Below, in pieces: positions 31,413 to 45,194 of a stretch of 64,000 nucleotides of DNA. Source of the DNA: Escherichia coli. GTDB taxonomy: Bacteria > Pseudomonadota > Gammaproteobacteria > Enterobacterales > Enterobacteriaceae. Made by a program: the position numbers and the translations under genes. The stretch lies in the NCBI RefSeq assembly GCF_003334305.1, contig NZ_QOWS01000003.1; one strand, 5' to 3'. A model generated the notes under the pieces. That model was not told where the DNA came from, made no database searches, and was given only the letters and a program-made list of their open reading frames with translations. The stretch's first letter is position 1. The number at the start of each line of letters is the position of its first letter.

Positions 31413-33563
31413 TTAGTGGTGCGAAGAGATCTTCACGCCGCCTTCCGGGATTGGAACGTACGGTGTTTCTTTGTCAGTACGTTTGTCGCTGTTACGCACA
31501 TTCAGCCAGGTTTTGAAACCGTAGAAGATGATGCTGTACACCACAATCAGGAACAGAATACTCAGGCCTGCGTTGGTGTAGTTGTTCACAACGATGTGGT
31601 TCATGTTGGCAATCTGCTGCGCCGTCAGGTCAGTACCGTTAGCAATCTTCTCTTTGTACTGGCTTGCCATGTAGAAGAAGCCTTCCATCTGCGGGTTGGT
31701 GCTGAACAGTTTCAGACCCAGCGCCCAGGTGGTGCAGATAAGCAGCCATACAGCCGGAACAACAGTTACCCAGATGTATTGGGTGCGCTTCATCTTAATC
31801 AGCACAACGGTGCCCAGTACCAGCGCTACGGCTGCCAGCATCTGGTTGGAAATACCGAACAGCGGCCACAGGCTCTTAACGCCGCCCAGCGGATCGACCA
31901 CGCCCTGATACAGCAGGTAGCCCCACAGACCCACACAGCCCGCAGTACCGATGATACCGGCAACCAGAGAGTCGGTTTTTTTCAGGAACGGGATGAAGTT
32001 ACCCAGCAGGTCTTGCAGCATAAAGCGGCCAGAACGAGTACCCGCATCCAGCGCGGTCAGGATGAACAGGGCTTCGAACAGAATACCGAAGTGATACCAG
32101 AAGCCCATGTCAGCCATCGGCAGCACTTTGTGGAACACGTGAGCGATACCTACCGCCAGCGTTGGCGCACCACCTGCACGGTTCAGGACAGAAGGCTCAC
32201 CAATGTCTTTCGCGGTTTGCAGGATCTGCTCTGGCGAAATCACGAAGCCCCAGGAGCTGACGGTCGCTGCCGCGTGTGCGGTAACGTCTTTCAGCTGCGC
32301 CATGATGATCGGCGCGTTCTCGCCACCCATTTCATGCAGGTTAGGCATGGTGATGCCAAGGCCAGCAGGCGGGGTATTCATCGCGAAGTAAAGACCCGGT
32401 TCGATGATGGACGCTGCAACCAGCGCCATAATCGCCACGAAGGACTCCATCAGCATTGCGCCGTAGCCAATGAAACGCGCGTCGGTTTCGTTAGCCAGCA
32501 GTTTTGGCGTCGTACCGGAAGAGATCAGCGCGTGGAAGCCAGATACCGCACCACAGGCGATGGTGATGAACAGGAACGGGAACAGAGCGCCTTTCCACAG
32601 CGGGCCAGTACCGTCAATGTACTGGGTCGTCGCAGGCATTTTCAGTTCCGGGTTCAGCACCACGATACCCAGCGCCAGGCCGACGATAACGCCGATTTTC
32701 AGGAAGGTTGCCAGATAGTCGCGCGGTGCGAGGATCAGCCACACCGGCAGCAGTGCGGAAACAAACGCATAGCCAATCAGCGCGAAGGTAATGGTGGTGT
32801 CTTTAAAGGTCAGTGCCGGACCCCAGTACGGATCGTGAGCAATCACGCCACCGAAGTAGATAGAGGCAACCAGCAGCACGATACCAATGACAGAGACTTC
32901 ACCCACACGCCCCGGACGGATAAAGCGCATGTAGATACCCATAAACAGCGCAATCGGTACGGTTGAGCAAACGGTGAAAACACCCCACGGGCTTTCGGCC
33001 AGGGCTTTAACCACAATCAGCGCCAGGACGGCAAGGATGATGATCATGATTAAGAAACAGCCAAACAGCGCGATAGTCCCCGGTACTGGTCCCATCTCTT
33101 CTTTGATCATCTCACCGAGAGATGCGCCGTTACGGCGAGAGGAGATAAACAGCACCATAAAGTCCTGTACCGCACCGGCCAGTACTACCCCCGCCAGCAG
33201 CCACAGCGTGCCAGGTAGGTAGCCCATCTGCGCGGCGAGAACCGGACCAACCAGCGGACCAGCACCGGCGATAGCGGCGAAGTGGTGACCAAACAACACG
33301 TAACGGTTGGTCGGAACATAGTTCAGACCGTCGTTGTTAATAACCGCAGGCGTCGCGCGCGTGGGGTCGAGTTTCATCACCTTCTGGGCGATGTACAGAC
33401 TGTAGTAGCGATAAGCCACCAGATACACCGACACAGAGGCGACCACGATCCACAGGGCGCTGACGTGCTCCCCCCGACGTAATGCAACTACCGCGAGGCA
33501 GAATGCACCGATGATTCCGAGAATCACCCAGGGTATGTGCTTGAATAGTTTTTTCGTATCCAT
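31413..33563 (-). CDS. btsT: Pyruvate/H+ symporter (CstA family) BtsT/YjiY
   Basis: 716 aa from MDTKKLFKHIPWVILG; polytopic CstA-like transporter; recognised YjiY. Confidence 0.9.
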   Translation of the reverse strand: MDTKKLFKHIPWVILGIIGAFCLAVVALRRGEHVSALWIVVASVSVYLVAYRYYSLYIAQKVMKLDPTRATPAVINNDGLNYVPTNRYVLFGHHFAAIAGAGPLVGPVLAAQMGYLPGTLWLLAGVVLAGAVQDFMVLFISSRRNGASLGEMIKEEMGPVPGTIALFGCFLIMIIILAVLALIVVKALAESPWGVFTVCSTVPIALFMGIYMRFIRPGRVGEVSVIGIVLLVASIYFGGVIAHDPYWGPALTFKDTTITFALIGYAFVSALLPVWLILAPRDYLATFLKIGVIVGLALGIVVLNPELKMPATTQYIDGTGPLWKGALFPFLFITIACGAVSGFHALISSGTTPKLLANETDARFIGYGAMLMESFVAIMALVAASIIEPGLYFAMNTPPAGLGITMPNLHEMGGENAPIIMAQLKDVTAHAAATVSSWGFVISPEQILQTAKDIGEPSVLNRAGGAPTLAVGIAHVFHKVLPMADMGFWYHFGILFEALFILTALDAGTRSGRFMLQDLLGNFIPFLKKTDSLVAGIIGTAGCVGLWGYLLYQGVVDPLGGVKSLWPLFGISNQMLAAVALVLGTVVLIKMKRTQYIWVTVVPAVWLLICTTWALGLKLFSTNPQMEGFFYMASQYKEKIANGTDLTAQQIANMNHIVVNNYTNAGLSILFLIVVYSIIFYGFKTWLNVRNSDKRTDKETPYVPIPEGGVKISSHH

Positions 33564-33842
33564 AGTAAAACCTGGCATTTTACTCGTCGTCTTTTGGCTT
33601 ACAGGTGCGGCAGCTGCGTTCGTTCACCTCTGTCACTTACTGTTGCAAGCTCCCGGGGATTCACTCACTTGCTGCCTTCCTGCAAACCAAAATCCATAGA
33701 GTAATTTGTTAATCATAGGCCGAAGCCGTTCTAGGTTTGCGTTGCGTTTGAGGAGGTAAATTGACCGCTATCCTGCAGTGATGTTGCCAGAGATACGCGC
33801 GCGTAAAGTAAGGTAAATAACTGAGTGGTTATTTTAGGGATG

Positions 33843-33870
33843 TAAGCGGTCAGGAATGGCGGTGAGCGGT
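33843..33870 (-). promoter_or_regulatory. Putative BtsR (YehT, LytTR) binding site: direct repeat upstream of btsT
   Basis: On the btsT-sense strand reads ACCGCTCA-N12-ACCGCTTA, matching the ACC(G/A)CT(C/T)A direct repeat I recall for YehT at the yjiY promoter; about 280 nt upstream of the btsT start. Confidence 0.5.
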
Positions 33871-33922
33871 TGGGCAAGAATTATTCATCGGGTGGATATG
33901 TGATTGAGATCACAATAAAAAT

Positions 33923-33949
33923 GCCCCTTCGACGAATGCGTGAAGGGGC
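33923..33949 (-). terminator. Rho-independent terminator after hpaC
   Basis: gccccttc...gaaggggc hairpin immediately after the hpaC stop, followed on the minus strand by ATTTTTATT. Confidence 0.6.
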
Positions 33950-33955
33950 TGGAGC

Positions 33956-34468
33956 TTAAATCGCAGCTTCCATTTCCAGCATCACCGGATGGAAACGGCG
34001 TTTAAAGTAAATAAGTCCGTGACCTTCTGCACTGAGGATGATGTTTTTAATCTCCACCAGATACACCAGATGTGTGCCAATCGCCTGCACATCGCGGATC
34101 TCTCCTTCAAGACTGGCCAGCGAACCTTTCAGCACCGGCTGCGCCAGCGGACCTTTTTGCCAGCATGAGAGGCTAAAACGCTCTTCCATCGCCATGCCTG
34201 TCATGCCCGCGAAGTGGCGTGCCATCAGTTCCTGCTCATGGTTGAGGACGTTGACGCACAACTTACCGTTGCCCTGAAAAACCGGGTTCATCGCACTGTT
34301 GGCGTTAATGCACACCATCAGCGACGGTGGTGTATCCGTGACCGAGCAGACGGCCGTTGCCGTAATTCCGCATTGTCCGGCGTCGCCCTCGGTGGTGATA
34401 ATATTTACCGCTGCCGACAGGCTGGCCATTGCGTCACGAAAGCGCAGGCGTTGTTCATCTAATTGCAT
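33956..34468 (-). CDS. hpaC: 4-HPA 3-monooxygenase reductase component (flavin:NADH reductase)
   Basis: 170-aa ORF; recognised HpaC. Confidence 0.9.
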   Translation of the reverse strand: MQLDEQRLRFRDAMASLSAAVNIITTEGDAGQCGITATAVCSVTDTPPSLMVCINANSAMNPVFQGNGKLCVNVLNHEQELMARHFAGMTGMAMEERFSLSCWQKGPLAQPVLKGSLASLEGEIRDVQAIGTHLVYLVEIKNIILSAEGHGLIYFKRRFHPVMLEMEAAI

Positions 34469-34485
34469 CTTAACCTCCTGCTGCG

Positions 34486-36048
34486 TTATTTCAGCAGCTT
34501 ATCCAGCATGTTGATATCGTCGTTGTTGTGCAGGTGCGGCACAGTCCAGCCGTTCTGGTCGTATTCCGACAGGCAGCGATCAACCATCGCCATCATCTTG
34601 TCCATATTGCCGGAGCTTTGTGCCTGGCGCAGACACTGCAGGCGAATCTCATCCTGGCTACCGGAGTAGTTGATTTCATACAGTTCGTGACGACCACCAA
34701 ACTCGCTGCCAATGGCATCCCACATCAGTTTGAGGATCTTGATGCGCTGGACGTGATCCATACCGTTCGAACCGCGCACATACTTCGCCAGATACTGGTC
34801 GATCTGCGGATTGTTCAGGTCACGGGCACTGGAAGGGAGATAGATCAGGCCACTGGTAACGTTGCGTTCGATAATGTTTTTGATCTTCGCGTAGGCCATT
34901 GGTGCCAGTACGCGATAGGTTTGCAGTGCGGCATGATCCGGTAAATAAGCCCCGTTGACCCACGGCGTCGCTTCAGAACACATCGAGTCACTCAATGCCC
35001 AGAAGGTGTTGCGCCACGCCACCACTTCACCGAGATCGGCCTGCACACCACGGAACTCCAGGGTGCCGGTACATTCGAGTGATTTTTTCAGCAGTGCCGT
35101 AATGAAGTCGAGTTTCACTGCCAGGCGCACACAGGCTTGCAGCGGATACATACGGGCGAAACCGCCTTCCATCGTCCAGCGACGGCAGCGATCAAAATCG
35201 CGGTAGATCAGCACGTTTTCCCATGGGATCAGCACGTTATCCATCACCAGAATCGCATCGTTCTCATCGAAGCGGCTGGAGAGCGGGTAGTCGTACGGCG
35301 AGCCGGTAGCACCCGCGACCATCTCATAAGAGGCGCGGGAGATTAATTTCACGCCATCGGCATCCATTGGCGCAACGAACATCAGTGCGAAGTCCGGGTT
35401 TTCGCCCATTACTTGTGCCGAGCCGAAGCCAATCATGTTGTAGTGAGTCAGCGCCGAGTTGGTGGCAACCACTTTCGCACCGCTAACGATAATCCCGGCG
35501 TCAGTCTCTTTTTCCAGCTTGATGTAAACGTCTTTCACTTTATCGGTCGGCAAATGACGATCGATCGGTGGGTTAACAATCGCGTGGTTAAAGTAGAGGC
35601 CAGTTTCCTGAATACGGGTGTACCAGTTACGGGCGTTCTGCTCGAACTGACCGTAAAAGCCCGGATTCGCGCCCAGTGCGCAACCGAAAGCAGCTTTGTA
35701 GTCTGGGGTACGGCCCATCCAGCCATAGCTCAGGCGTGACCATTCAGCGATGGCGTCGCGTTGCTGGCGCAGGTCGTCGGCACTTTTCGCCACGCGGAAG
35801 AATTTATGGGTATAGCCGCCGCTGCCGGTGTCGGTGTTCCAACACAGAGAGTCCTGCATCTCCGGTTTGTGCAGCGCGTCGTACAGTTGGGCAACAGACG
35901 CTGCCGCATTACGAAATGCCGGATGAGTGGTGACGTCTTTCACTCGCTCGCCATAGATATAGATCTCGCGACCATCCTGCAGGCTTTTCAGATACTCTTC
36001 CCCGGTGAAAGGACGTTGGGTACTGGCGCGGAAATCTTCTGGTTTCAT
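34486..36048 (-). CDS. hpaB: 4-hydroxyphenylacetate 3-monooxygenase oxygenase component
   Basis: 520-aa ORF; recognised HpaB. Confidence 0.9.
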   Translation of the reverse strand: MKPEDFRASTQRPFTGEEYLKSLQDGREIYIYGERVKDVTTHPAFRNAAASVAQLYDALHKPEMQDSLCWNTDTGSGGYTHKFFRVAKSADDLRQQRDAIAEWSRLSYGWMGRTPDYKAAFGCALGANPGFYGQFEQNARNWYTRIQETGLYFNHAIVNPPIDRHLPTDKVKDVYIKLEKETDAGIIVSGAKVVATNSALTHYNMIGFGSAQVMGENPDFALMFVAPMDADGVKLISRASYEMVAGATGSPYDYPLSSRFDENDAILVMDNVLIPWENVLIYRDFDRCRRWTMEGGFARMYPLQACVRLAVKLDFITALLKKSLECTGTLEFRGVQADLGEVVAWRNTFWALSDSMCSEATPWVNGAYLPDHAALQTYRVLAPMAYAKIKNIIERNVTSGLIYLPSSARDLNNPQIDQYLAKYVRGSNGMDHVQRIKILKLMWDAIGSEFGGRHELYEINYSGSQDEIRLQCLRQAQSSGNMDKMMAMVDRCLSEYDQNGWTVPHLHNNDDINMLDKLLK

Positions 36049-36298
36049 GTCGACCTCTACAGTATTAATCGGAATACGATTGTTAATTTTGTGTGTTGTT
36101 TTTGTTATTTAATTGAAGCTTGCAGGGGCGATTACGGGAAGACACTTTTGGGACAATGGCTGGTACTTTTCAGGTCGGGTACGGTTTTGTGATCGAGGTC
36201 GCTTTTAGCGATTTTTAACGTTACTAAATCCCCTTGCTCCAGGCGGAGAAAGGGGAATAGCAGGTGGTGCCTGGTTTCCCGTTAAGGCTAAGGGATTT

Positions 36299-37189
36299 TC
36301 ACGTCACAGGTACTTTTTTGGCACGATAAGCACTGGGCGAGCAACCGACTAAGCGATTAAAAAAGCGCGCAAAATAAGCCGGATCTTTAAAACCGAGTTG
36401 CCAGGCAATATTGTTCACGGCGTTATCAGAAAACAGCAGCAGCCGCTTGGCTTCTCGTAGCTGCCTGTCGAAAATCAACCGTTTTGGCGGACGGTTGGCA
36501 AAGCGGCGGCAGATGTCCGTGAGTCGTGATTCGGTGATATGCAGTTCGTTAGCGTAATCCGGTACTGTCCAGTGCTGATGAAAATGGCTTTCAATCAGCA
36601 TATTAAAACGCTGGAACAGTTTTAATTCTCCGCGCATCCCGCTGGCGGCATGGTCGTCGAGTTTTGCATTACGCAGCAGTAGGGTGAACACTGCCTGTGC
36701 CAGTAGCGTCAGGGTGTGTTCCCGTCCAGGCAGTTGTTCCACCGATTCCCGCTCTATCAGTTGCCAATAGTGTTCCAGCGCCGCCAGTTCGTCGGGTTTA
36801 TCTGCCAGTGACAGGCAAATCCCCGGCAGGCCGAAGGTTTCCCGAGTGCCTGGATAAAGAACTTCCAGCAGGGGCCAGATCAGATCTTCCCGTACCGTCA
36901 ACACATGACCGTCGGCGTCAGACTCCGTAATAAACGCATGAGGTACTGACGGTGGCGTCAGGACAAACAGGGGCGCTTCCACCGAGTAGCGATGATCGTC
37001 AAGCTGTAGCTCAATCTGTCCGCTATTGAGGAAATGCATCTGAAAGTACTGTTCGTGGCGATGTGGCAGCATATGGCGGCCAAAAAAGGCCGCCATGCGG
37101 GCGAACGACTGATAATGCACATCGTCCGTGCCCAGGCTTTCATCGTACTCTTTGCTGATATCAATATTGGCAATCTGACGGTCACACAT
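36299..37189 (-). CDS. hpaA: AraC/XylS-family activator of hpaBC
   Basis: 296-aa ORF with C-terminal AraC-type HTH; cupin-like N-terminal region. Confidence 0.85.
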   Translation of the reverse strand: MCDRQIANIDISKEYDESLGTDDVHYQSFARMAAFFGRHMLPHRHEQYFQMHFLNSGQIELQLDDHRYSVEAPLFVLTPPSVPHAFITESDADGHVLTVREDLIWPLLEVLYPGTRETFGLPGICLSLADKPDELAALEHYWQLIERESVEQLPGREHTLTLLAQAVFTLLLRNAKLDDHAASGMRGELKLFQRFNMLIESHFHQHWTVPDYANELHITESRLTDICRRFANRPPKRLIFDRQLREAKRLLLFSDNAVNNIAWQLGFKDPAYFARFFNRLVGCSPSAYRAKKVPVT

Positions 37190-37198
37190 CGTCGTTCC

Positions 37199-38575
37199 TT
37201 ACGGGGTCGCTCGCGGACGGGAGGACTGCATTGGAATCGCCCAGATAATCCCCGCACCAATCACCAGCAGCGCGGCAACAAACCACAATCCACTGTTAAA
37301 GCTGCCGGTCAGATCTTTCAACCAGCCGATCATAAACGGACTTAACGCTGAACCAATGTTGCCAGTGGCGTTGATCACCGCAATACCGATCGCTCGTGCC
37401 CGCAGGCTGATGGACTGATCCGGTGTTGTCCAGAAAATCGCCATTGCGCTGAATGATCCGGTCGAAGCCATAATGATCCCCAGCATCTGGATCATGTTGT
37501 GATCAGTTGCCGAAGCCAGTAACCAACCTGCGGCAGCGAACAAATAAGGAAGGGCGGTGTGATGCCTTCGTTCCTGGCGGCGATCTGAGTGACGGCTCCA
37601 GTAGACCATCCCGAGAATGGTACAAATCTGCGGTACGGCGGCCAGCAGGCCGATGGTGATATTACTGCTGCCCTGATTAAAACTTTGCAGGATCTGCGGT
37701 GTCCAGATGCTGATCGCACTAAGTGTGTTGGTCAGGCAGAAATACGCCAGGGTATACATCATCACCACCGGAGTGAAGATCTCCCGCCACATACTGCGTT
37801 GTTGCATGGCGTGGTGGCTGATGGCTCCCTCTGGCTGAACCAGCGTCAGACGATCGTTATCCATCATCTCTTGCAGGCATTTTTTGTCTTCTTTCGTCAG
37901 CCACTTAGCTTTGTCCGGTGAGTCATCAAGCCAGAACCACACCATGACGCCGAGTAATACCGACGGGAAGCCTTCCAGCAAAAACAGCCACTGCCAGCCT
38001 TTTAATGCCATTACGCCATCCAGCGACAAAATGTAGCCGGAAACGAGCGATCCCAACGCTGTCGTTACCGGCATTGCAACCATAAACAAGGCGTTGGCAC
38101 GGGCGCGGAAATAGGCCGGAAACCAGAAGGTTAAATACAGCAGAATGCCAGGCAGAAAGCCGGCTTCGGTAATGCCAACCAGTATACGCAGTACGTACAA
38201 GCTGGTGGGGCCAGTGGCAAACATGGTGGCAGTAGAGGCGATGCCCCAGAGCACCATGATGGTGGCGATCCAGCGCCGCGCACCGACAATACTCAGCATA
38301 ATGTTGCTGGGAATGCCGAAGATGACATAAGCGGCATAGAACAGGGTGGTAGCGAGGCCAAACATGGTGGCGCTCAGACCGAGGTCGCGTCCCATCGTGA
38401 GTCCGGCAAAGCCGATGTTGATGCGATCAAGGAACGAGAAGATAAACAGCACGAACAGAAAGACGATCAGGCGGCGAAATAGCTTCTTAATAACCGCCTG
38501 TTGTCCGGCAGTCAGCGCTTTATGCTGATTCGCCGGATCGATACTCTCCGGTATGGCAGGTGAGGTGTCGCTCAT
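37199..38575 (-). CDS. hpaX: 4-hydroxyphenylacetate MFS transporter
   Basis: 458 aa from MSDTSPAIPESIDPANQ; 12-TM MFS permease; the longer ORF start is rejected. Confidence 0.85.
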   Translation of the reverse strand: MSDTSPAIPESIDPANQHKALTAGQQAVIKKLFRRLIVFLFVLFIFSFLDRINIGFAGLTMGRDLGLSATMFGLATTLFYAAYVIFGIPSNIMLSIVGARRWIATIMVLWGIASTATMFATGPTSLYVLRILVGITEAGFLPGILLYLTFWFPAYFRARANALFMVAMPVTTALGSLVSGYILSLDGVMALKGWQWLFLLEGFPSVLLGVMVWFWLDDSPDKAKWLTKEDKKCLQEMMDNDRLTLVQPEGAISHHAMQQRSMWREIFTPVVMMYTLAYFCLTNTLSAISIWTPQILQSFNQGSSNITIGLLAAVPQICTILGMVYWSRHSDRRQERRHHTALPYLFAAAGWLLASATDHNMIQMLGIIMASTGSFSAMAIFWTTPDQSISLRARAIGIAVINATGNIGSALSPFMIGWLKDLTGSFNSGLWFVAALLVIGAGIIWAIPMQSSRPRATP

Positions 38576-38624
38576 TTTTCTTCCTCTAATGGGATTTTTG
38601 TAGGGTACGACAAGGTTTATGGCG

Positions 38625-38745
<121 letters not shown>

Positions 38746-38749
38746 GGCA

Positions 38750-39538
38750 TTAATACACGCCGGGCTTCACGGCGGTGGCCTGCGCACCAAACCGTGCTGC
38801 CAGCGCTTCAGCGGCGCGGGCGAGCAGGGTGGTGTCAACGCCGACGGCGACAAACAGCGCGCCCAGTTCCAGATAGCGTTTTGCCAGTTGCTCATTGGCG
38901 ATCAGGATCCCCGGCGCTTTGCCCGCTTCGCGGATCTGCACGATCGCCTGCTCAATGGCGGCCTGTACTTCCGGGTGCTGCGGATTACCGGCATAACCCA
39001 TATCGGCGCTCAGATCCGCCGGGCCGATAAACACGCCGTCGACCCCTTCCACGTCCAGAATCTGCGGTAAGTTCTTCATTGCCTCACGCGTTTCGATCTG
39101 CACCAGCACGCACATTTGATCGTTGGCTTTTTGCAGGTAATCAGGAATGCGATTCCAGCGCGAGGCACGGGCCAGCGCACTGCCCACACCGCGAATACCG
39201 GCGGGGGGATAACGGGTGGCGCGTACCGCTTCACGGGCTTCGTCAGCGTTTTGAACCATCGGCACCAGTAAGGTTTGTGTGCCGACGTCCAGCAGTTGTT
39301 TGATTTGCACCGGATCGTTCCACGACGGACGTACTACCGGCTGGCTGGGGTAGGGCGCAATCGCCTGTAGCTGGGTGAGCACGGTTTGCACGTTATTCGG
39401 CGCGTGCTCACCGTCGATCAATAACCAGTCGAATCCTGCTCCGGCCAGTAACTCTGCGCTGTAGCTGCTACTTAGCCCCAGCCATAATCCGATCTGCGGG
39501 CGGCCTGCTTTCAGCGCCGCTTTAAAACTGTTTTCCAT
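38750..39538 (-). CDS. hpaI: 2,4-dihydroxyhept-2-ene-1,7-dioate aldolase (HpcH/HpaI)
   Basis: 262 aa from [20 protein letters not shown]; the ORF-track 5' extension is rejected. Confidence 0.85.
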
Positions 39539-39548
39539 CGTTCTCTCC

Positions 39549-40352
39549 TTAAACAAAGCGGCAGCTAATGGAGCCCATGTTGCCGTAATCGACGTGGAAG
39601 GTGTCGCCCTTACGCGCCGGAACCGGGCGGGTGAACGAACCGCCGAGAATGATTTGCCCGGCTTCCAGTTGTACGTCATACGGTGCGAGTTTGTTCGCCA
39701 GCCAGGCCACGCCGTTTGCCGGATGATTTAGCACGCCAGCGGCGACGCCGGTTTCTTCAATCACGCCATTGCGATACATCAGGGCGGAGATCCAACGCAG
39801 ATCCAGTTCGTCTGGTTTGATCGGACGACCGCCGAGGATCACTCCGGCGTTGGCGGCGTTATCAGAAATGGTGTCGAACACTTTGCGCGGGCGCTGGGTT
39901 TCCGGATCGATGTTGTGGCAGCGAGCGTCGATCAGCTCCAGCGCCGGGATCACGTAGTCCGTGGCGTTGTAGACGTCGAACAGCGTGCAGTTTGGCCCAC
40001 GCAGCGGTTTTGCCAGCACGAAAGCCAGCTCCACTTCAATGCGCGGCACGATAAAGCGATCGGTCGGGATATCGCTGCCATCGTGGAAGAACATGTCGTC
40101 CAGCAATGCACCGTAATCTGGTTCGCTGATTTGTGAGCTGGCCTGCATCGCTTTCGAGGTCAGACCGATTTTGTGGCCTTTCAGCGTACGGCCTTCGGCG
40201 ATTTTCAGTCGAACCCATTCACGCTGCACCGCGTAAGCGTCTTCGATGGTGATCTCCGGGTAATCCAGGGAGATCGCGCGGATCTGTTCGCGCTGTTTTT
40301 CTGCCTGATCCAGACGCTGGGCGATCAGGGTGTGGGTGTGTTTATCGAACAT
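39549..40352 (-). CDS. hpaH: 2-oxo-hept-4-ene-1,7-dioate hydratase
   Basis: 267 aa from [20 protein letters not shown]; recognised HpaH/HpcG. Confidence 0.85.
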
Positions 40353-40419
40353 AGCGATATCCTGTGGCATTGCCGGATGCGGCTGCGCCTTATCATCCGG
40401 CCTGGAAGCTGGTGCAAAT

Positions 40420-40800
40420 TTATTTAAACAACGCGTGCACGTTGTTTTGTTTAAAATTCAGCGTCGGGTGCAGCTCTGCAATCTCAAATGAAAGCGCCAG
40501 GTAACGGCTCTCCATCAGTGAGGCGAAGTGCGTTTTAATCAGATCAAACAGCATTTCGCCCACTTCCTGACGGCTTTCCAGGCTGCGCCCGCTGCCGATT
40601 TTTAGCGTCATATGCACAAAGGCGTAATCGTGCTTGCCATCAGCCATTTGCCAGGTATCGATCCAGTGCGCCCGGCTACGTATTCCCCCAAGCGGAAAAA
40701 TCCCCGTCGCCGCCAGTGCAGTGTTAACACTGGCAAACAGCTCAGGTAAGCGGGCTTCTTGACGAATATTTTCAGTACATTCCACGATAAAGTGCGGCAT
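40420..40800 (-). CDS. hpaF: 5-carboxymethyl-2-hydroxymuconate isomerase
   Basis: 126-aa ORF; recognised HpaF/HpcD. Confidence 0.85.
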
Positions 40801-40809
40801 GGTGGTTCC

Positions 40810-41661
40810 TTACGCGGGAAGCGGGAAAACAGCGTTAACCTGACCGGTGCCAGAGCTTGGGAATAGCTCGGTGATAAACTCCACCTTGCCGTCGTATTTA
40901 TCCCAGCCGAGCATCCCCAGCAGCATCACCGTGTCGTGCATATTGCCTTCGCCGTAGCAGTAGTCGGCGTACTCCGGCAGCATATTGCAGAACTCTTTGA
41001 ACTGGCCTTCGCGCCACAACTTCACCACGCGCTCGTCCATCTGGCGGTCGAACTCGCGGGTGTAGCTGTTCATCCCTTCTTCTGCACGCTGATCGTCAAT
41101 AAAGCGGTGCGATAACGAACCGCTGGCAAGGACCGCCACGGTGCCGTCGTACTGTTCGATCGCTTTCAGAATCGCTTCGCCCAGCTTGCGGCTGTCGGCA
41201 AAATCGTGAACCGTGCAGAAAGCCGAAATGGAGACCACTTTGAAGCGCTTGTCTTCATTCATGTAGCGCATCGGTACCAGCGTGCCGTATTCCAGTTTCA
41301 GGCTGGGAATGTTGTGCGCTTTTGCCCGCACGCCGAGCTTTAAGGCTTCATCGGCAATTAGCTGCCCCAACTCCGGGTTGCCCTCGTAGTTGTAGGTCAT
41401 GTCACGAATAAAATGCGGCAGCTCGTTGCTGGTGTAGACGCCTTCAAAATGGTCTGCACAGTTGATGTGATAAGCACTGTTGACCAGCCAGTGGGTATCG
41501 AAAACGATAATGGTATCGACGCCCATTTCCCGGCAACGCTTGCTGATCTCTTTATGCCCGTCGATCGCACCCTGGCGGCAACCGTGGTTTTTCCCTGGCA
41601 GTTCAGAGAGATACATCGACGGTACGTGCGTGATCTTGGCGGCTAACGCTAACTTACCCAT
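40810..41661 (-). CDS. hpaD: 3,4-dihydroxyphenylacetate (homoprotocatechuate) 2,3-dioxygenase
   Basis: 283-aa ORF; recognised HpaD/HpcB. Confidence 0.9.
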   Translation of the reverse strand: MGKLALAAKITHVPSMYLSELPGKNHGCRQGAIDGHKEISKRCREMGVDTIIVFDTHWLVNSAYHINCADHFEGVYTSNELPHFIRDMTYNYEGNPELGQLIADEALKLGVRAKAHNIPSLKLEYGTLVPMRYMNEDKRFKVVSISAFCTVHDFADSRKLGEAILKAIEQYDGTVAVLASGSLSHRFIDDQRAEEGMNSYTREFDRQMDERVVKLWREGQFKEFCNMLPEYADYCYGEGNMHDTVMLLGMLGWDKYDGKVEFITELFPSSGTGQVNAVFPLPA

Positions 41662-41662
41662 A

Positions 41663-43129
41663 TCAGACTCCCCATTTCGGAATTGGATGGTCGCCCATGG
41701 AAATGCAGACGTTCTTCATTTCCGCGAACACTTCGAAGCTGTACTCACCGCCTTCACGTCCGGTGCCGGAGGCTTTTACGCCGCCAAACGGCTGGCGCAG
41801 GTCGCGGACGTTCTGGGTGTTGACGAACACCATGCCTGCTTCAATGCCACGCGCCAGGCGTAACACTTTGCTGACATCCTGTGTCCAGATGTACGACGCG
41901 AGGCCGTACTCCACGTCGTTTGCCAGGCGTAAGCCTTCGGCTTCGTCTTTAAACGGCAGCAGGCAGGCGACCGGCCCGAAAATCTCTTCCTGGGCGACGC
42001 GCATACGGTTATCAACGTCTGCCAGCACCGTTGGGCGCAGGAAGTTGCCGCCTTTCAGGTGTGCAGGCAGGTCAGACGGTTTATCCGGGCCGCCCGCCAG
42101 CAGGGTTGCGCCTTCTTCAATGCCGAGACGGATATAGCCGGAGACTTTTTCCCAGTGTTGCTGGCTGATAAGCGCCCCAACCTGGGTATTTGGATCGTTC
42201 GGATCGCCCACGCGCAGACGGTTGGCGCGTTCGGCAAAGCGTTTAACGAATTCCGGGTAGATGCTCTGCTGAATAAAGATGCGCGAACCGGCGGTGCAGC
42301 GTTCGCCGTTGATCGAGAAGATGGTGAACAGGGCGGCGTCCAGCGCGCGTTCAATATCAGCATCTTCAAAAATCAGCACCGGCGATTTACCGCCCAGTTC
42401 CATGGAGTATTTTTTCAGCCCGGCGTTTTTCATGATGTTGCGCCCGGTGGCGGTACCGCCGGTGAACGACACGGCACGCACGTCATGATGACGAACCAGC
42501 GCATCCCCTGCGGTTGCGCCGTAGCCCTGTACCACGTTCAGCACGCCTGCCGGAATACCGGCTTCCAGCGCCAGCTCACCCAGGCGGTCAGCGGTCAGCG
42601 GGGAGAGTTCCGACATCTTCAGCACCGCGGTATTGCCCAGCGCCAGACACGGCGCGACCTTCCAGGTGGCGGTCATAAACGGCACGTTCCACGGCGATAC
42701 CAGCGCACAAACGCCCACCGGCTGCACCAGCGTGTAGTTGAGCATCTTGTCGTCAACCGGATAGGTCTTGCCGTTCATCTGCTGGCAGACTTCCGCGAAA
42801 AATTCAAAGTTGTGAGAAGCGCGTGGGATCAACACATTTTTGGTCTGATGGATCGGCAGGCCCGTGTCCGCGGTTTCCATCGCGGCGATCTCCGGTACGT
42901 TCTGGTCGATCAGATCGCCCAGACGGCGCATCAGGCGCGCGCGCTCTTTCATCGGCAGATTGGCCCATTTCGGGAACGCCTCTTTCGCTGCCGCTACCGC
43001 CTGATTGATCTCCGCTTCACCGCCGGAGGCCACATCCGCCAGCACTTCACCCGTTGCCGGATTGGTAGTCTGGAAGTAGTCGTTACCTGCAACATTTTTA
43101 CCGTTGATCCAATGATTTACTTTTTTCAT
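41663..43129 (-). CDS. hpaE: 5-carboxymethyl-2-hydroxymuconate semialdehyde dehydrogenase
   Basis: 488-aa ORF; aldehyde dehydrogenase family; 1-nt gap to hpaD and 4-nt overlap with hpaG. Confidence 0.9.
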   Translation of the reverse strand: MKKVNHWINGKNVAGNDYFQTTNPATGEVLADVASGGEAEINQAVAAAKEAFPKWANLPMKERARLMRRLGDLIDQNVPEIAAMETADTGLPIHQTKNVLIPRASHNFEFFAEVCQQMNGKTYPVDDKMLNYTLVQPVGVCALVSPWNVPFMTATWKVAPCLALGNTAVLKMSELSPLTADRLGELALEAGIPAGVLNVVQGYGATAGDALVRHHDVRAVSFTGGTATGRNIMKNAGLKKYSMELGGKSPVLIFEDADIERALDAALFTIFSINGERCTAGSRIFIQQSIYPEFVKRFAERANRLRVGDPNDPNTQVGALISQQHWEKVSGYIRLGIEEGATLLAGGPDKPSDLPAHLKGGNFLRPTVLADVDNRMRVAQEEIFGPVACLLPFKDEAEGLRLANDVEYGLASYIWTQDVSKVLRLARGIEAGMVFVNTQNVRDLRQPFGGVKASGTGREGGEYSFEVFAEMKNVCISMGDHPIPKWGV

Positions 43130-44415
43130 TTCGCTGTTTCCTCACTCACAATTCGGTTCACCAGGCGGCCCACGCCTTCTACTTCCACCACCACTTCATC
43201 GCCAGGCACCACGTCAGATAAGCCTTTTGGTGTGCCGGTGGCGATCATGTCGCCCGGATTCAGGGTCATAAATTCGCTTAAGTAGGCGATCAGGAAGGGC
43301 ACGCTGAAGATCAGATCGGCGGTGGTGCCTTGCTGGCGTAACTCGCCGTTGACGAAGGTGCGAAGGGTCAGATTATGCGGGTCCGGGATCGCCTCTTTCG
43401 GCACGATGGTTGAAAGCATCGGCGTCAGTCCGTCGCGGCTTTTGACCCGCAGGTTAGGGCGGTAGTAGTTTTCCAGATAGTCGCGAATGGCGTAGTCGTT
43501 ACACACGGTGTAGCCCGCGACATAATCCATGGCATCGGCTTCGCTGACGTTACGCGCCTGTTTGCCAATAACTACCACCAGCTCCGCTTCATAGTGCATG
43601 TATTCAATATTGTTTGGACGCACGGAGGTCTGGTTATCGCCAGTGAGGGTATTTGGCGCTTTCAGGAACACCAGCGGTTCTTCCGGTGGCTTAAATTCCA
43701 GTTCGCTGGCGTGGTCGGCGTAGTTCAGGCCGAGGGCAAACAGCGTGCCGTGCGGGTGTGGCTGCGTTGGGAAGCTCTTGCGCGTGGTCACTTCACGTTC
43801 GTCCACTACCGGATTTTCCAGCGGCGGGAAACCTTCTGCGAGAACACGAACGCGATCGCCTGGCTGTATTTCCACGCGCGCCTGTGGCGTGCCGAGCAGA
43901 ATGGCATCGCCTGGATTCAGTGTGGCAAATTCGCTCAGGGCGCTCAGCAACTGCGCGGCGTTACGTTGTAAATCGGCGGTATTCCAGTGATCGGCAGGAC
44001 GCCCGTTGATCTCGGTATAGATGGTCAGATTATCGACATTGCTGAGAGCCACGGTTTCGCCAATGGGGCAGAATCCATCACGACATTTTGCTTTGATTGC
44101 CGGGCGGTAAAAGCTCTCTTCCGGCAGGCTGACGTCGTTAGCCAGCGCATATCCGGCGATGTACTCTGCCGCATCTTCTTCACGTACTTTCGTCGCCGTT
44201 TTTCCCACAATCAGCGCAACAGTCGCACCGCTCAGTACCTTTTCACCCTGTGGAAAGGGAATCGGTTCACCGCAACCAATCACCGTATTGCGCGGTTTAA
44301 TAAACCAGACCGCAGTTTTAGGCGGGGCTTTGTAGGGGGATTGCTGGAACGCTTCCTGCCATGCATCAAGTTGGCTGCGATGGTTCAACGCTACGGCGAA
44401 GATAGTGCCTTTCAT
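43126..44415 (-). CDS. hpaG: Bifunctional OPET decarboxylase / HHDD isomerase
   Basis: 429 aa from MKGTIFAVALNHRSQ with GAGGAG RBS; two FAH-like halves. Confidence 0.9.
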   Translation of the reverse strand: MKGTIFAVALNHRSQLDAWQEAFQQSPYKAPPKTAVWFIKPRNTVIGCGEPIPFPQGEKVLSGATVALIVGKTATKVREEDAAEYIAGYALANDVSLPEESFYRPAIKAKCRDGFCPIGETVALSNVDNLTIYTEINGRPADHWNTADLQRNAAQLLSALSEFATLNPGDAILLGTPQARVEIQPGDRVRVLAEGFPPLENPVVDEREVTTRKSFPTQPHPHGTLFALGLNYADHASELEFKPPEEPLVFLKAPNTLTGDNQTSVRPNNIEYMHYEAELVVVIGKQARNVSEADAMDYVAGYTVCNDYAIRDYLENYYRPNLRVKSRDGLTPMLSTIVPKEAIPDPHNLTLRTFVNGELRQQGTTADLIFSVPFLIAYLSEFMTLNPGDMIATGTPKGLSDVVPGDEVVVEVEGVGRLVNRIVSEETAK

Positions 44416-44440
44416 TACCACTCCTCGGATTCGATCATTT

Positions 44441-44464
44441 TAATCATTAATATGTTAATGATTA
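44441..44464. promoter_or_regulatory. Perfect palindrome in the hpaG promoter region, probable HpaR (MarR-type) operator
   Basis: TAATCATTAA-TATG-TTAATGATTA, 26-50 nt upstream of the hpaG ATG; a partial copy (ATTAATGATTTT) occurs at about 44652..44667 near the hpaR start. Confidence 0.4.
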
Positions 44465-44686
44465 CTTTTATTCCCGATTGCGTAGTTTGGCAAAAGTAAG
44501 TGATGTAAATGTGATCTAATTAACAAACTATTTACATTTAAAGATAATAAAATATTAAATATCAGCAAGTTAACAAAACATGCTCAATTTTGATAAAATG
44601 AAGAATTGCAGGGGCAGCGCAGTCCCGGTAACGTGATGATTAACTGTTTCTATATTAATGATTTTGAATTTTTCAGGGGAAAGATA

Positions 44687-45133
44687 ATGCACGACTCTCT
44701 AACCATTGCGTTGCTCCAGGCGCGAGAAGCGGCGATGAGTTATTTTCGCCCAATCGTTAAACGGCATAATTTGACTGAGCAACAGTGGCGCATCGTGCGT
44801 ATTCTGGCGGAAAGCCCATCAATGGATTTTCACGATCTGGCGTATCGCGCCTGCATTTTGCGCCCAAGCCTGACCGGGATCCTTACGCGGATGGAACGCG
44901 ACGGTTTAGTGTTGCGATTAAAGCCGATCAATGATCAGCGGAAGCTCTATATCTCGCTAACCAAAGAGGGGCAGGCGCTGTATAACCGCGCTCAGACACA
45001 GATTGAAGAAGCCTATCGGCAGATTGAAGCTCAGTTTACTGCCGAGAAAATGCAACAGTTAACCCATCTGTTAGAGGAATTTATTGCTCTGGGCAATTCC
45101 CGACAAGAAGACATCCCGGGCGATAATGAATAA
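44687..45133 (+). CDS. hpaR: MarR-family repressor of the hpa meta-cleavage operon
   Basis: 148 aa from MHDSLTIALLQAREAAMSYF; winged-helix MarR-like; divergent from hpaG. Confidence 0.85.
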   Translation: MHDSLTIALLQAREAAMSYFRPIVKRHNLTEQQWRIVRILAESPSMDFHDLAYRACILRPSLTGILTRMERDGLVLRLKPINDQRKLYISLTKEGQALYNRAQTQIEEAYRQIEAQFTAEKMQQLTHLLEEFIALGNSRQEDIPGDNE

Positions 45134-45194
45134 CTTTTTAGTATCTGATAACCAGCGCCTGGTTTTTCCATGGATGGCGGGTTACACCTTTTCA

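What the first reader, a model, noticed from the sequence alone, without database searches (positions are those of the whole stretch)
33843..33870. BtsR (YehT) type direct repeat retained upstream of btsT at the edge of the hpa insertion
On the btsT-sense strand the sequence reads ACCGCTCA-N12-ACCGCTTA, fitting the ACC(G/A)CT(C/T)A direct-repeat motif I recall for the LytTR regulator YehT/BtsR at the yjiY promoter (the published spacing is 13 bp as I remember it; here I count 12). It lies about 280 nt upstream of the btsT ATG, implying a long leader, and only about 50 bp from the hpaC terminator.
Basis: partly seen in the sequence, partly recalled or inferred. Interest (0 to 1): 0.35.

Follow-up and report, generated by a model that had tools for sequence, protein, structure and literature searches.

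The report
btsT promoter: three BtsR boxes
The flagged repeat is real and belongs to the already-known pyruvate-responsive btsT promoter, but it pairs one published BtsR box with a third upstream box that is conserved across enteric bacteria and that I did not find described in the papers I could read.

Summary
The sequence is exactly as described: ACCGCTCA-N12-ACCGCTTA on the minus strand at 33843-33870. The published YehT/BtsR site (direct repeat, 13-bp spacer) is ACCGCTTA-N13-ACCACTCA at 33822-33850, identical to K-12.

The distal box is not chance. In 78 other Enterobacterales species, chosen through the BtsT protein, every btsT promoter has three tandem ACCRCTYA boxes with 12/13-bp spacers. 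The distal box is as conserved as the proximal one (1.63 vs 1.66 bits per column; spacers and flanks 0.3-0.8). A CRP-type palindrome lies 28 bp upstream (33899-33914) and abuts the hpaC terminator. That is the real hpa junction.

The 280-nt distance to the ATG is inflated by a ~125-bp ERIC repeat in the leader that K-12 lacks. hpaC-btsT adjacency occurs in 16 other species, so "insertion" is doubtful.

Verdict: a known promoter, intact. The modest new point is a conserved three-box operator. BtsR binding to the distal box is inferred, not shown.

The parts
33863..33870 (-). Distal (third) BtsR-type box, ACCGCTCA. K-12 has GCCGCTCA here.
   Evidence: Conserved in all 78 species loci with usable upstream sequence (1.63 bits per column; 56 of 80 sequences match perfectly, 23 have one mismatch, one has two).
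33851..33862 (-). Spacer 1, 12 nt (CCGCCATTCCTG). The sequence varies but the length is conserved.
   Evidence: Two alleles within E. coli. N12 in 75 of 80 sequences; 0.48 bits per column.
33843..33850 (-). Middle box, ACCGCTTA.
   Evidence: Identical to the K-12 oligo. 1.79 bits per column.
33830..33842 (-). Spacer 2, 13 nt (CATCCCTAAAATA), the published 13-bp spacer.
   Evidence: Most other genera have 12 nt here (54 of 80 sequences).
33822..33829 (-). Proximal box, ACCACTCA.
   Evidence: 1.66 bits per column.
33899..33914 (.). CRP-type palindrome TGTGATCTCAATCACA (10/10 of TGTGA-N6-TCACA), 28 bp upstream of the distal box.
   Evidence: Present with <=2 mismatches in all 80 sequences, with a 28-bp gap in 69. 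cAMP-CRP dependence of yjiY is reported in PMC5431176.
33915..33949 (-). hpaC intrinsic terminator: stem-loop 33923-33949 and U-tract 33915-33922, directly abutting the CRP site. This is the true junction of the hpa block.
   Evidence: Fold -18 kcal/mol, z = -4.1. Sequence left of TGTGAT differs in the hpa+, K-12 and O157 types.
33956..34468 (-). hpaC (4-hydroxyphenylacetate 3-monooxygenase reductase subunit), last gene of the hpa block (about 33915-45190).
   Evidence: ORF list. RefSeq annotation of identical E. coli loci. K-12 tsr-side homology resumes at 45191.
33781..33789 (-). Inferred extended -10 element TGGCAACAT (TGnCAnnAT in other genera). The inferred transcription start is near 33774.
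   Evidence: Conserved block in 72 aligned promoters. No consensus sigma-70 promoter was found. This is an inference only, and the TSS was not verified.
33718..33728 (-). Small conserved UUCG hairpin (CGGCUUCGGCC) in the leader.
   Evidence: Compensatory changes in Salmonella and Kluyvera (CAGCUUCGGCUG).
33580..33708 (-). ERIC/IRU repeat inserted in the btsT 5' leader (net +123 nt versus K-12), ending about 17 nt before the ATG.
   Evidence: Gap relative to K-12, SCU-124 and O157. Dispersed at a median of 8 places per genome in 5426 genomes. Hairpin -54.7 kcal/mol, z = -7.1. Matches the ERIC1R/ERIC2 cores at 19/22 and 18/22.
31413..33563 (-). btsT (yjiY), pyruvate/H+ symporter, 716 aa. An in-frame ATG 5 codons upstream at 33578 is also present in K-12.

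Best explanation
Window 33781-33914 (minus strand) is the native btsT (yjiY) promoter, complete and unaltered next to the hpa cluster. It consists of a CRP-type site, then three phased LytTR-type BtsR boxes (ACCGCTCA-N12-ACCGCTTA-N13-ACCACTCA, centre-to-centre 20 and 21 bp, about two helical turns), then a weak core promoter of the extended -10 type.

Inferred mechanism: when BtsS senses external pyruvate, activated BtsR occupies the boxes and, together with cAMP-CRP, recruits or activates RNA polymerase at a promoter that has no good -35. The middle and proximal boxes are the published YehT site. It most likely binds a further BtsR protomer, or offers an alternative dimer register at the ancestral 12-bp spacing, and so adds cooperativity.

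The transcript then carries a ~211-nt leader (inferred) instead of ~88 nt, because an ERIC repeat sits just upstream of the Shine-Dalgarno region.

What is shown here: the sequence anatomy, identity to the K-12 site, conservation, and the ERIC insertion. What is inferred: BtsR binding to the distal box, the TSS and box positions (-51.5, -72.5, -92.5; CRP -132.5), and any effect of the ERIC.

The confidence of 0.7 is for the whole statement. The identity of the promoter and of the published pair is about 0.95. The distal box being a functional BtsR contact is about 0.65.
For: - Anatomy.
- K-12 comparison: the K-12 oligo named 'yjiY YehT bs' contains the same three-box layout. The published spacing is 13 bp, and only the middle plus proximal pair fits both ACC[G/A]CT[C/T]A and N13 in K-12.
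- Within E. coli: CCGCTCA of the distal box is invariant in four lineages, while the 12-nt spacer and the 28-nt upstream flank diverge at constant length.
- Across species: all 78 loci with usable upstream sequence, chosen through the BtsT protein, have three boxes with <=3 total mismatches. Spacer pairs (counting also the window and K-12) are 12/12 in 53, 12/13 in 22, 13/13 in 4 and 13/12 in 1.
- Controls: 0 of 395 dinucleotide shuffles reach <=4 mismatches. All 120 triple hits in 1.25 Mb lie within 400 nt upstream of btsT on its strand.
- Information content per column: distal 1.63, middle 1.79, proximal 1.66; spacers 0.48-0.82; flank 0.31.
- CRP-type site at a fixed 28-bp gap in 69 of 80 sequences. 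CRP and Csr control are reported in PMC5431176.
- LytTR sites are generally repeats separated by 11-13 nt (PMC4847170), so both N12 and N13 are in range.
Against: - No binding data for the distal box were available to me. Kraxenberger 2012 could not be read, so the authors may have tested that box and found it dispensable, or may already have described it.
- In K-12, where the site was mapped, the distal box is imperfect (GCCGCTCA), yet the promoter works. About half of E. coli genomes carry the K-12-type flank.
- The species are related, so the conservation counts are not independent events. The low conservation of the intervening spacers argues against mere lack of divergence.
- The core-promoter assignment rests on conservation only, and the consensus scan found nothing.
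Confidence: 0.7

Rival explanations
1. The flagged pair (ACCGCTCA-N12-ACCGCTTA) is itself the published YehT/BtsR site, shifted from 13 to 12 bp in this strain.
For: The motif fits ACC[G/A]CT[C/T]A, and the location is upstream of btsT.
Against: - The exact published-type pair with N13 (ACCGCTTA-CATCCCTAAAATA-ACCACTCA) sits immediately downstream and is 29/29 identical to the K-12 oligo.
- The [G/A] in the consensus requires ACCACTCA.
- K-12 has the same 12-nt distance to its own distal box, so nothing has shifted.
Confidence: 0.03
2. The distal box is a non-functional relic, an old tandem duplication of a box that persists by descent or chance. BtsR acts only through the two published boxes.
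For: - The published description mentions only two repeats.
- K-12 works with an imperfect distal box.
- A further degenerate fourth box appears and disappears among lineages (23 of 80 sequences), showing that box-like sequence can decay here.
Against: - The distal box is kept in 78 of 78 species, with information content equal to the proximal box, while the spacers and flank around it are nearly randomised.
- Its spacer length is the most constrained (N12 in 75 of 80).
- Within E. coli, CCGCTCA is invariant amid diverged flanks.
Confidence: 0.12
3. The distal box is functional but not as a simple extra activator site. It could be a regulatory register for BtsR, for example sequential binding and clearance that gives the transient btsT expression pulse, as in the YpdB 'AB-BA' model. 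It could also be bound by another factor.
For: - btsT expression is a sharp transient pulse (PMC5431176; PMC9504724).
- The paralogue YpdB shows sequential cooperative binding and rapid clearance at two sites (PMC4847170).
- The three boxes offer two overlapping dimer registers.
Against: - No kinetic data exist for BtsR.
- The box sequence is the BtsR motif itself, so a different factor is unlikely.
- The sequence alone cannot distinguish this from the main explanation.
Confidence: 0.15

Closest known systems
YehT/BtsR binding site in the E. coli K-12 yjiY (btsT) promoter (Kraxenberger et al. 2012, as cited in PMC4222967 and PMC4847170)
   Same: It is the orthologous promoter. The middle box, 13-nt spacer and proximal box are 29/29 identical to the K-12 oligo. 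The CRP-type site and the downstream promoter blocks are shared.
   Different: - The distal box is a perfect ACCGCTCA here versus GCCGCTCA in K-12.
- Spacer 1 and the 28-nt flank are a different allele.
- The upstream neighbour is the hpaC terminator instead of the tsr control region.
- The leader carries an ERIC insert.
- K-12 additionally has a degenerate fourth box, GTCACTTA, which is absent here.
YpdB operator of yhjX (sites A and B, 'AB-BA' mechanism; PMC4847170)
   Same: It is the paralogous LytS/LytTR pyruvate system, with direct repeats at a spacing of about two helical turns upstream of a transporter gene, and binding is cooperative.
   Different: The motif is different (GGCATTTCAT) and only two sites are described. 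A possible degenerate third copy upstream in the published oligo is my own observation and was not tested.
Generic LytTR operators (AgrA P2/P3, PlnC/D, VirR): two 9-11-nt repeats separated by 11-13 nt (PMC4847170 introduction)
   Same: Repeat length, direct orientation and 12/13-nt spacers fit both adjacent pairs here.
   Different: There are three equally conserved tandem boxes rather than two, plus a CRP site at a fixed distance.
ERIC / IRU elements (enterobacterial repetitive intergenic consensus)
   Same: About 125 nt, a long imperfect palindrome, dispersed intergenic copies in every E. coli genome, and matches to both ERIC primer cores.
   Different: Nothing unusual about the element itself. 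The position is notable: inside the btsT 5' leader, just upstream of the ribosome-binding site of a CsrA-controlled mRNA.

Membership tests
Published YehT/BtsR operator of btsT (yjiY) | Direct repeat of ACC[G/A]CT[C/T]A on the btsT-sense strand upstream of btsT | tested here: met
   Three perfect copies at 33822-33829, 33843-33850 and 33863-33870 on the minus strand.
Published YehT/BtsR operator of btsT (yjiY) | 13-bp spacer between the two repeats | tested here: not met
   For the flagged pair (33843-33870) the spacer is 12. The feature is met by the neighbouring pair 33822-33850, whose spacer is 13 and identical to K-12.
Published YehT/BtsR operator of btsT (yjiY) | Sequence identity with the experimentally used K-12 site | tested here: met
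   ACCGCTTACATCCCTAAAATAACCACTCA is identical to the 'yjiY YehT bs' oligo of PMC4847170.
Published YehT/BtsR operator of btsT (yjiY) | Binding by purified BtsR and BtsR-dependent activation | not testable with these tools
   This needs EMSA, SPR, footprinting and reporter assays. The original paper could not be read.
LytTR-type operator | Repeats of about 9-11 nt separated by 11-13 nt | tested here: met
   8-nt cores with a conserved flanking base, and spacers of 12 and 13. In 80 sequences the spacers are only 12 or 13.
LytTR-type operator | Two repeats per operator | tested here: not met
   Three equally conserved boxes in all 80 sequences, and a degenerate fourth in 23.
CRP (cAMP receptor protein) site | TGTGA-N6-TCACA palindrome at a conserved position in a CRP-dependent promoter | tested here: met
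   33899-33914 matches 10/10. It is conserved in 80 of 80 sequences, mostly 28 bp from the distal box. CRP dependence comes from the literature. Binding was not tested.
ERIC / IRU repeat | An imperfect palindrome of about 127 bp, in dispersed intergenic copies, matching the ERIC consensus core | tested here: met
   The primer sequences are from my own knowledge, and one was confirmed as present in PMC2947995.

The most novel reading that the evidence does not exclude
The BtsR operator is not a two-repeat site. It is a tripartite array of three phased boxes, ancestrally 12/12 spacing, at a fixed 28 bp from a CRP site, and it is conserved throughout Enterobacterales. The distal box is a functional BtsR contact that has not been described. 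E. coli would then be polymorphic for its quality: a perfect A-allele in the hpa+ and O157 types, and a G-allele in the K-12 type. That polymorphism could tune pyruvate-responsive btsT induction between lineages.
Probability: 0.4. Interest if true: 0.45.

Novelty: already known. Interest (0 to 1): 0.3.

Why it matters
The BtsS/BtsR-BtsT system is the high-affinity pyruvate sensing and uptake module of enteric bacteria, and it is one of the few LytTR regulators studied in Gram-negatives. This analysis shows that the whole promoter module (CRP site plus boxes) travels intact whether the neighbour is hpa, tsr or another insert. hpa+ strains should therefore regulate btsT normally.

The useful extension is a concrete, cheap experiment. 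One conserved third box, with natural A and G alleles in E. coli, can be mutated to ask whether LytTR activators use more than a dimer's worth of sites. The ERIC insert in the leader of a CsrA-controlled mRNA, present in about 38% of E. coli genomes, is a second natural variant worth a translational-fusion test.

Tried and rejected
- Reading the primary paper (Kraxenberger 2012) and two companion papers by DOI or PMC id failed because they are not held. The published site was reconstructed from the K-12 oligo in PMC4847170 and the '13-bp spacer' statement in PMC4222967.
- Other Jung-lab papers (PMC5552118, PMC10653868, PMC9504724, PMC5431176) give no box sequences and no mention of a third box.
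- My first cross-species scan, with a fixed N13 anchor, mis-registered most loci. I replaced it with a flexible three-box search.
- The consensus promoter/terminator scan found nothing in 33540-33980. The hpaC terminator was missed by its loop-size rule and was confirmed by folding instead.
- For the conserved CTGGCA block I considered a sigma-54 reading (TGGCA-N7-TGCA in E. coli) and a -35 reading. I rejected the first because other genera lack the GG and GC elements. I rejected the second because no -10 follows at a workable spacing.
- The Rfam search gave only a sub-threshold hit (V_AS5, 25.5 bits versus a gathering score of 96) on the ERIC element, so there is no known leader RNA family.
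- The leader fold with the ERIC does not consistently sequester the SD: pairing appears only in a low-frequency MFE structure and not in the centroid. I therefore make no claim about translation.

Full report
**1. Observation**

On the + strand, 33843-33850 reads TAAGCGGT and 33863-33870 reads TGAGCGGT. On the minus strand, which is the sense strand of btsT, this is ACCGCTCA, 12 nt, ACCGCTTA, exactly as reported.

The 8-mer ACCRCTYA occurs 13 times in the 64-kb window on both strands, against 6.3 expected. Three of these sit in the same orientation within 49 bp. A window-wide scan finds no other pair (total <=1 mismatch, spacer 10-15) and no other triple.

**2. Which part is the published site**

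The primary paper could not be read. Two accessible papers fix the answer.
- PMC4222967 states that YehT binds a direct repeat separated by a 13-bp spacer.
- PMC4847170 lists the K-12 'yjiY YehT bs' oligo: CCTTTGCCGCTCAACCGCAAAACTGACCGCTTACATCCCTAAAATAACCACTCAGTTA.

In K-12 the only pair that fits ACC[G/A]CT[C/T]A with N13 is ACCGCTTA-N13-ACCACTCA. The [G/A] and [C/T] positions of the consensus are exactly the two differences between those boxes. That 29-nt unit is identical in the window at 33822-33850.

In K-12 that distal box sits at the same 12-nt distance but reads GCCGCTCA.

**3. Is the distal box meaningful**

Within E. coli, I aligned this window with K-12, a B2-type strain and O157. 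From the middle box downstream the sequence is almost invariant. Upstream of it, the 12-nt spacer exists as two very different alleles and the 28 nt beyond the distal box are nearly unalignable. The lengths are nevertheless constant and CCGCTCA is invariant.

For an unbiased wider sample I fetched loci through the BtsT protein rather than through the motif. This gave 80 species representatives with BtsT >=90% identical, spanning Escherichia, Salmonella, Citrobacter, Klebsiella, Raoultella, Kluyvera, Enterobacter, Kosakonia, Lelliottia, Pluralibacter, Trabulsiella, Pantoea, Erwinia, Mixta, Rahnella and Leminorella.

All 78 loci with usable upstream DNA carry three tandem ACCRCTYA boxes. The counts below also include the window and K-12, 80 sequences in all.

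| Total mismatches | Sequences |
|---|---|
| 0 | 38 |
| 1 | 31 |
| 2 | 8 |
| 3 | 3 |

| Spacer pair (distal/proximal) | Sequences |
|---|---|
| 12/12 | 53 |
| 12/13 | 22 |
| 13/13 | 4 |
| 13/12 | 1 |

Controls:
- None of 395 dinucleotide shuffles reached even 4 mismatches.
- In 1.25 Mb of locus sequence on both strands, all 120 triple hits lie within 400 nt upstream of btsT on its strand.

Information content per column:

| Element | Bits per column |
|---|---|
| Distal box | 1.63 |
| Middle box | 1.79 |
| Proximal box | 1.66 |
| Spacers | 0.48-0.82 |
| Upstream flank | 0.31 |

The distal box is thus as constrained as a published box. Its 12-nt spacing is the most constant feature (75 of 80 sequences). 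The 13-nt proximal spacer of E. coli is the minority state, and E. albertii has 12.

A degenerate fourth box at N12 further upstream occurs in 23 of 80 sequences, against about 3 expected. K-12 has one (GTCACTTA) but this window does not.

**4. Surroundings**

*CRP site and terminator.* A perfect CRP-type palindrome, TGTGATCTCAATCACA, lies at 33899-33914, 28 bp upstream of the distal box. An equivalent site (<=2 of 10 mismatches) is present in all 80 sequences, with a 28-bp gap in 69. This fits the reported cAMP-CRP dependence of yjiY (PMC5431176). The U-tract of the hpaC terminator (33915-33922; stem-loop 33923-33949, -18 kcal/mol) abuts this palindrome.

*The hpa junction.* To the left of TGTGAT the hpa+, K-12 (tsr) and O157 (a hypothetical ORF) contexts are unrelated. 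The junction of the variable region is therefore at the CRP site, not at the BtsR boxes. K-12 homology resumes at window 45191 on the tsr side.

*Insertion or deletion.* hpaC lies directly upstream of btsT, in the same orientation, in 16 other species: Klebsiella, Raoultella, Enterobacter, Lelliottia, Pseudocitrobacter and some Citrobacter. One Escherichia lineage retains only a 37-aa hpaC remnant. Loss in K-12-type lineages is therefore at least as plausible as insertion here.

*Frequencies in E. coli.* 2066 of 5426 complete genomes have this hpaC-terminator/CRP/box junction. About 2756 have the K-12-type flank.

**5. The 'long leader'**

The distance from the proximal box to the ATG is 258 nt here and 135 nt in K-12. 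The difference is a block at about 33580-33708 that K-12, SCU-124 and O157 lack.

This block has the properties of an ERIC/IRU element:
- It is a dispersed repeat, at a median of 8 places per genome in all 5426 genomes.
- It folds into a long imperfect hairpin (-54.7 kcal/mol, z = -7.1).
- It matches the two ERIC primer cores back-to-back, at 19/22 and 18/22.

It ends about 17 nt before the ATG, so it lies inside the 5' UTR of an mRNA reported to be under Csr control. In E. coli it is almost perfectly linked to hpa: 2061 of the 2066 hpa+ genomes carry it. It also sits at the same site in E. albertii and in a cryptic Escherichia clade that lack a full hpaC. It is predicted to fold autonomously, and I make no claim about an effect on translation.

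**6. Mechanism (inference)**

No consensus sigma-70 promoter is present, as expected for an activator-dependent promoter. The conserved blocks downstream of the proximal box include T-TGGCAAGAT. The most coherent reading of this block is an extended -10 element, which in E. coli is TGGCAACAT at 33781-33789.

With a start near 33774, the boxes centre at about -51.5, -72.5 and -92.5, and the CRP site at about -132.5. All are separated by roughly two or four helical turns. The likely mechanism is that BtsR activated by pyruvate-bound BtsS occupies the phased boxes cooperatively and, with cAMP-CRP, activates RNA polymerase. The distal box would add a third protomer or a second dimer register. LytTR operators are normally described as two repeats 11-13 nt apart (PMC4847170), and both adjacent pairs here satisfy that. 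Binding to the distal box and the TSS are not shown.

**7. Comparison and novelty**

This is the orthologue of a known, characterised promoter, and the published site is intact. In that sense the finding is already known and ordinary. What I did not find in any accessible paper is the third box and its conservation across the order. I cannot exclude that the unread 2012 paper covers it. The natural A/G polymorphism of the distal box and the ERIC-bearing leader are ready-made variants for testing.

**8. Verdict**

- Observation: confirmed.
- Interpretation: partly supported. The regulator and promoter are right. The pair is the wrong one for the published site. The leader length and the 'edge of insertion' were both misattributed.
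- Interest is low to moderate.

Noticed in passing
window 33580-33708 (minus strand): An ERIC/IRU repeat is inserted in the btsT 5' leader about 17 nt before the ATG, and K-12 lacks it. In E. coli it is almost perfectly linked to hpa (2061 of 2066 hpa+ genomes). The same insert is at the same site in E. albertii (L006) and Escherichia sp. E1V33 (L004), with a partial copy in Citrobacter portucalensis (L020).
   Followed up: partly
window 33899-33922; L001 (K-12), L003 (O157): The variable region between tsr and btsT ends exactly at the left edge of the CRP-type palindrome. Three unrelated left-hand contexts abut the same TGTGAT: the hpaC terminator, the tsr control region, and an O157 hypothetical ORF of 180 aa.
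   Followed up: partly
L013, L014, L021-L023, L025, L031, L035, L037, L042, L044, L047-L049, L053, L069; L005: hpaC lies directly upstream of btsT in 16 other species of several genera. L005 (Escherichia sp. MOD1-EC7003) keeps only a 37-aa hpaC 3' remnant, and an E. coli genome (H65) matches from inside the terminator onward. This suggests hpa loss rather than hpa insertion in hpa-minus lineages.
   Followed up: partly
L001 (K-12) upstream of GCCGCTCA; 23 of 80 sequences: A degenerate fourth box lies 12 nt upstream of the distal box (K-12 GTCACTTA; Citrobacter CCCACTCA; Phytobacter GCCGCTTA). It is enriched over chance and over other offsets, and it is absent in this window. L022 and L055 have four good boxes.
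   Followed up: partly
window 33718-33728 (minus strand): A small conserved UUCG-loop hairpin (CGGCUUCGGCC) lies in the btsT leader, with compensatory stem changes in Salmonella and Kluyvera (CAGCUUCGGCUG). A conserved UACCUCCUCAAAC block lies upstream of it.
   Followed up: no
PMC4847170 Table 1 (yhjX YpdB oligo): The paralogous YpdB operator oligo also seems to carry a degenerate third copy upstream (GTCATTCAT-N11-GGCATTTCAT-N11-GGCATTTCAT). This hints that three-box arrays may be common to both pyruvate LytTR systems.
   Followed up: no
window 33863-33870 vs L001, L002, L003: The first base of the distal box is polymorphic in E. coli: A (a perfect box) in the hpa+ and O157 types, G in the K-12 and B2 types. 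The adjacent 12-nt spacer has two very different alleles that are not linked to that base.
   Followed up: partly
window 33576-33578: An in-frame ATG lies five codons upstream of the annotated btsT start, giving a 721-aa ORF. It is also present in K-12, so it is not created by the ERIC insertion.
   Followed up: no
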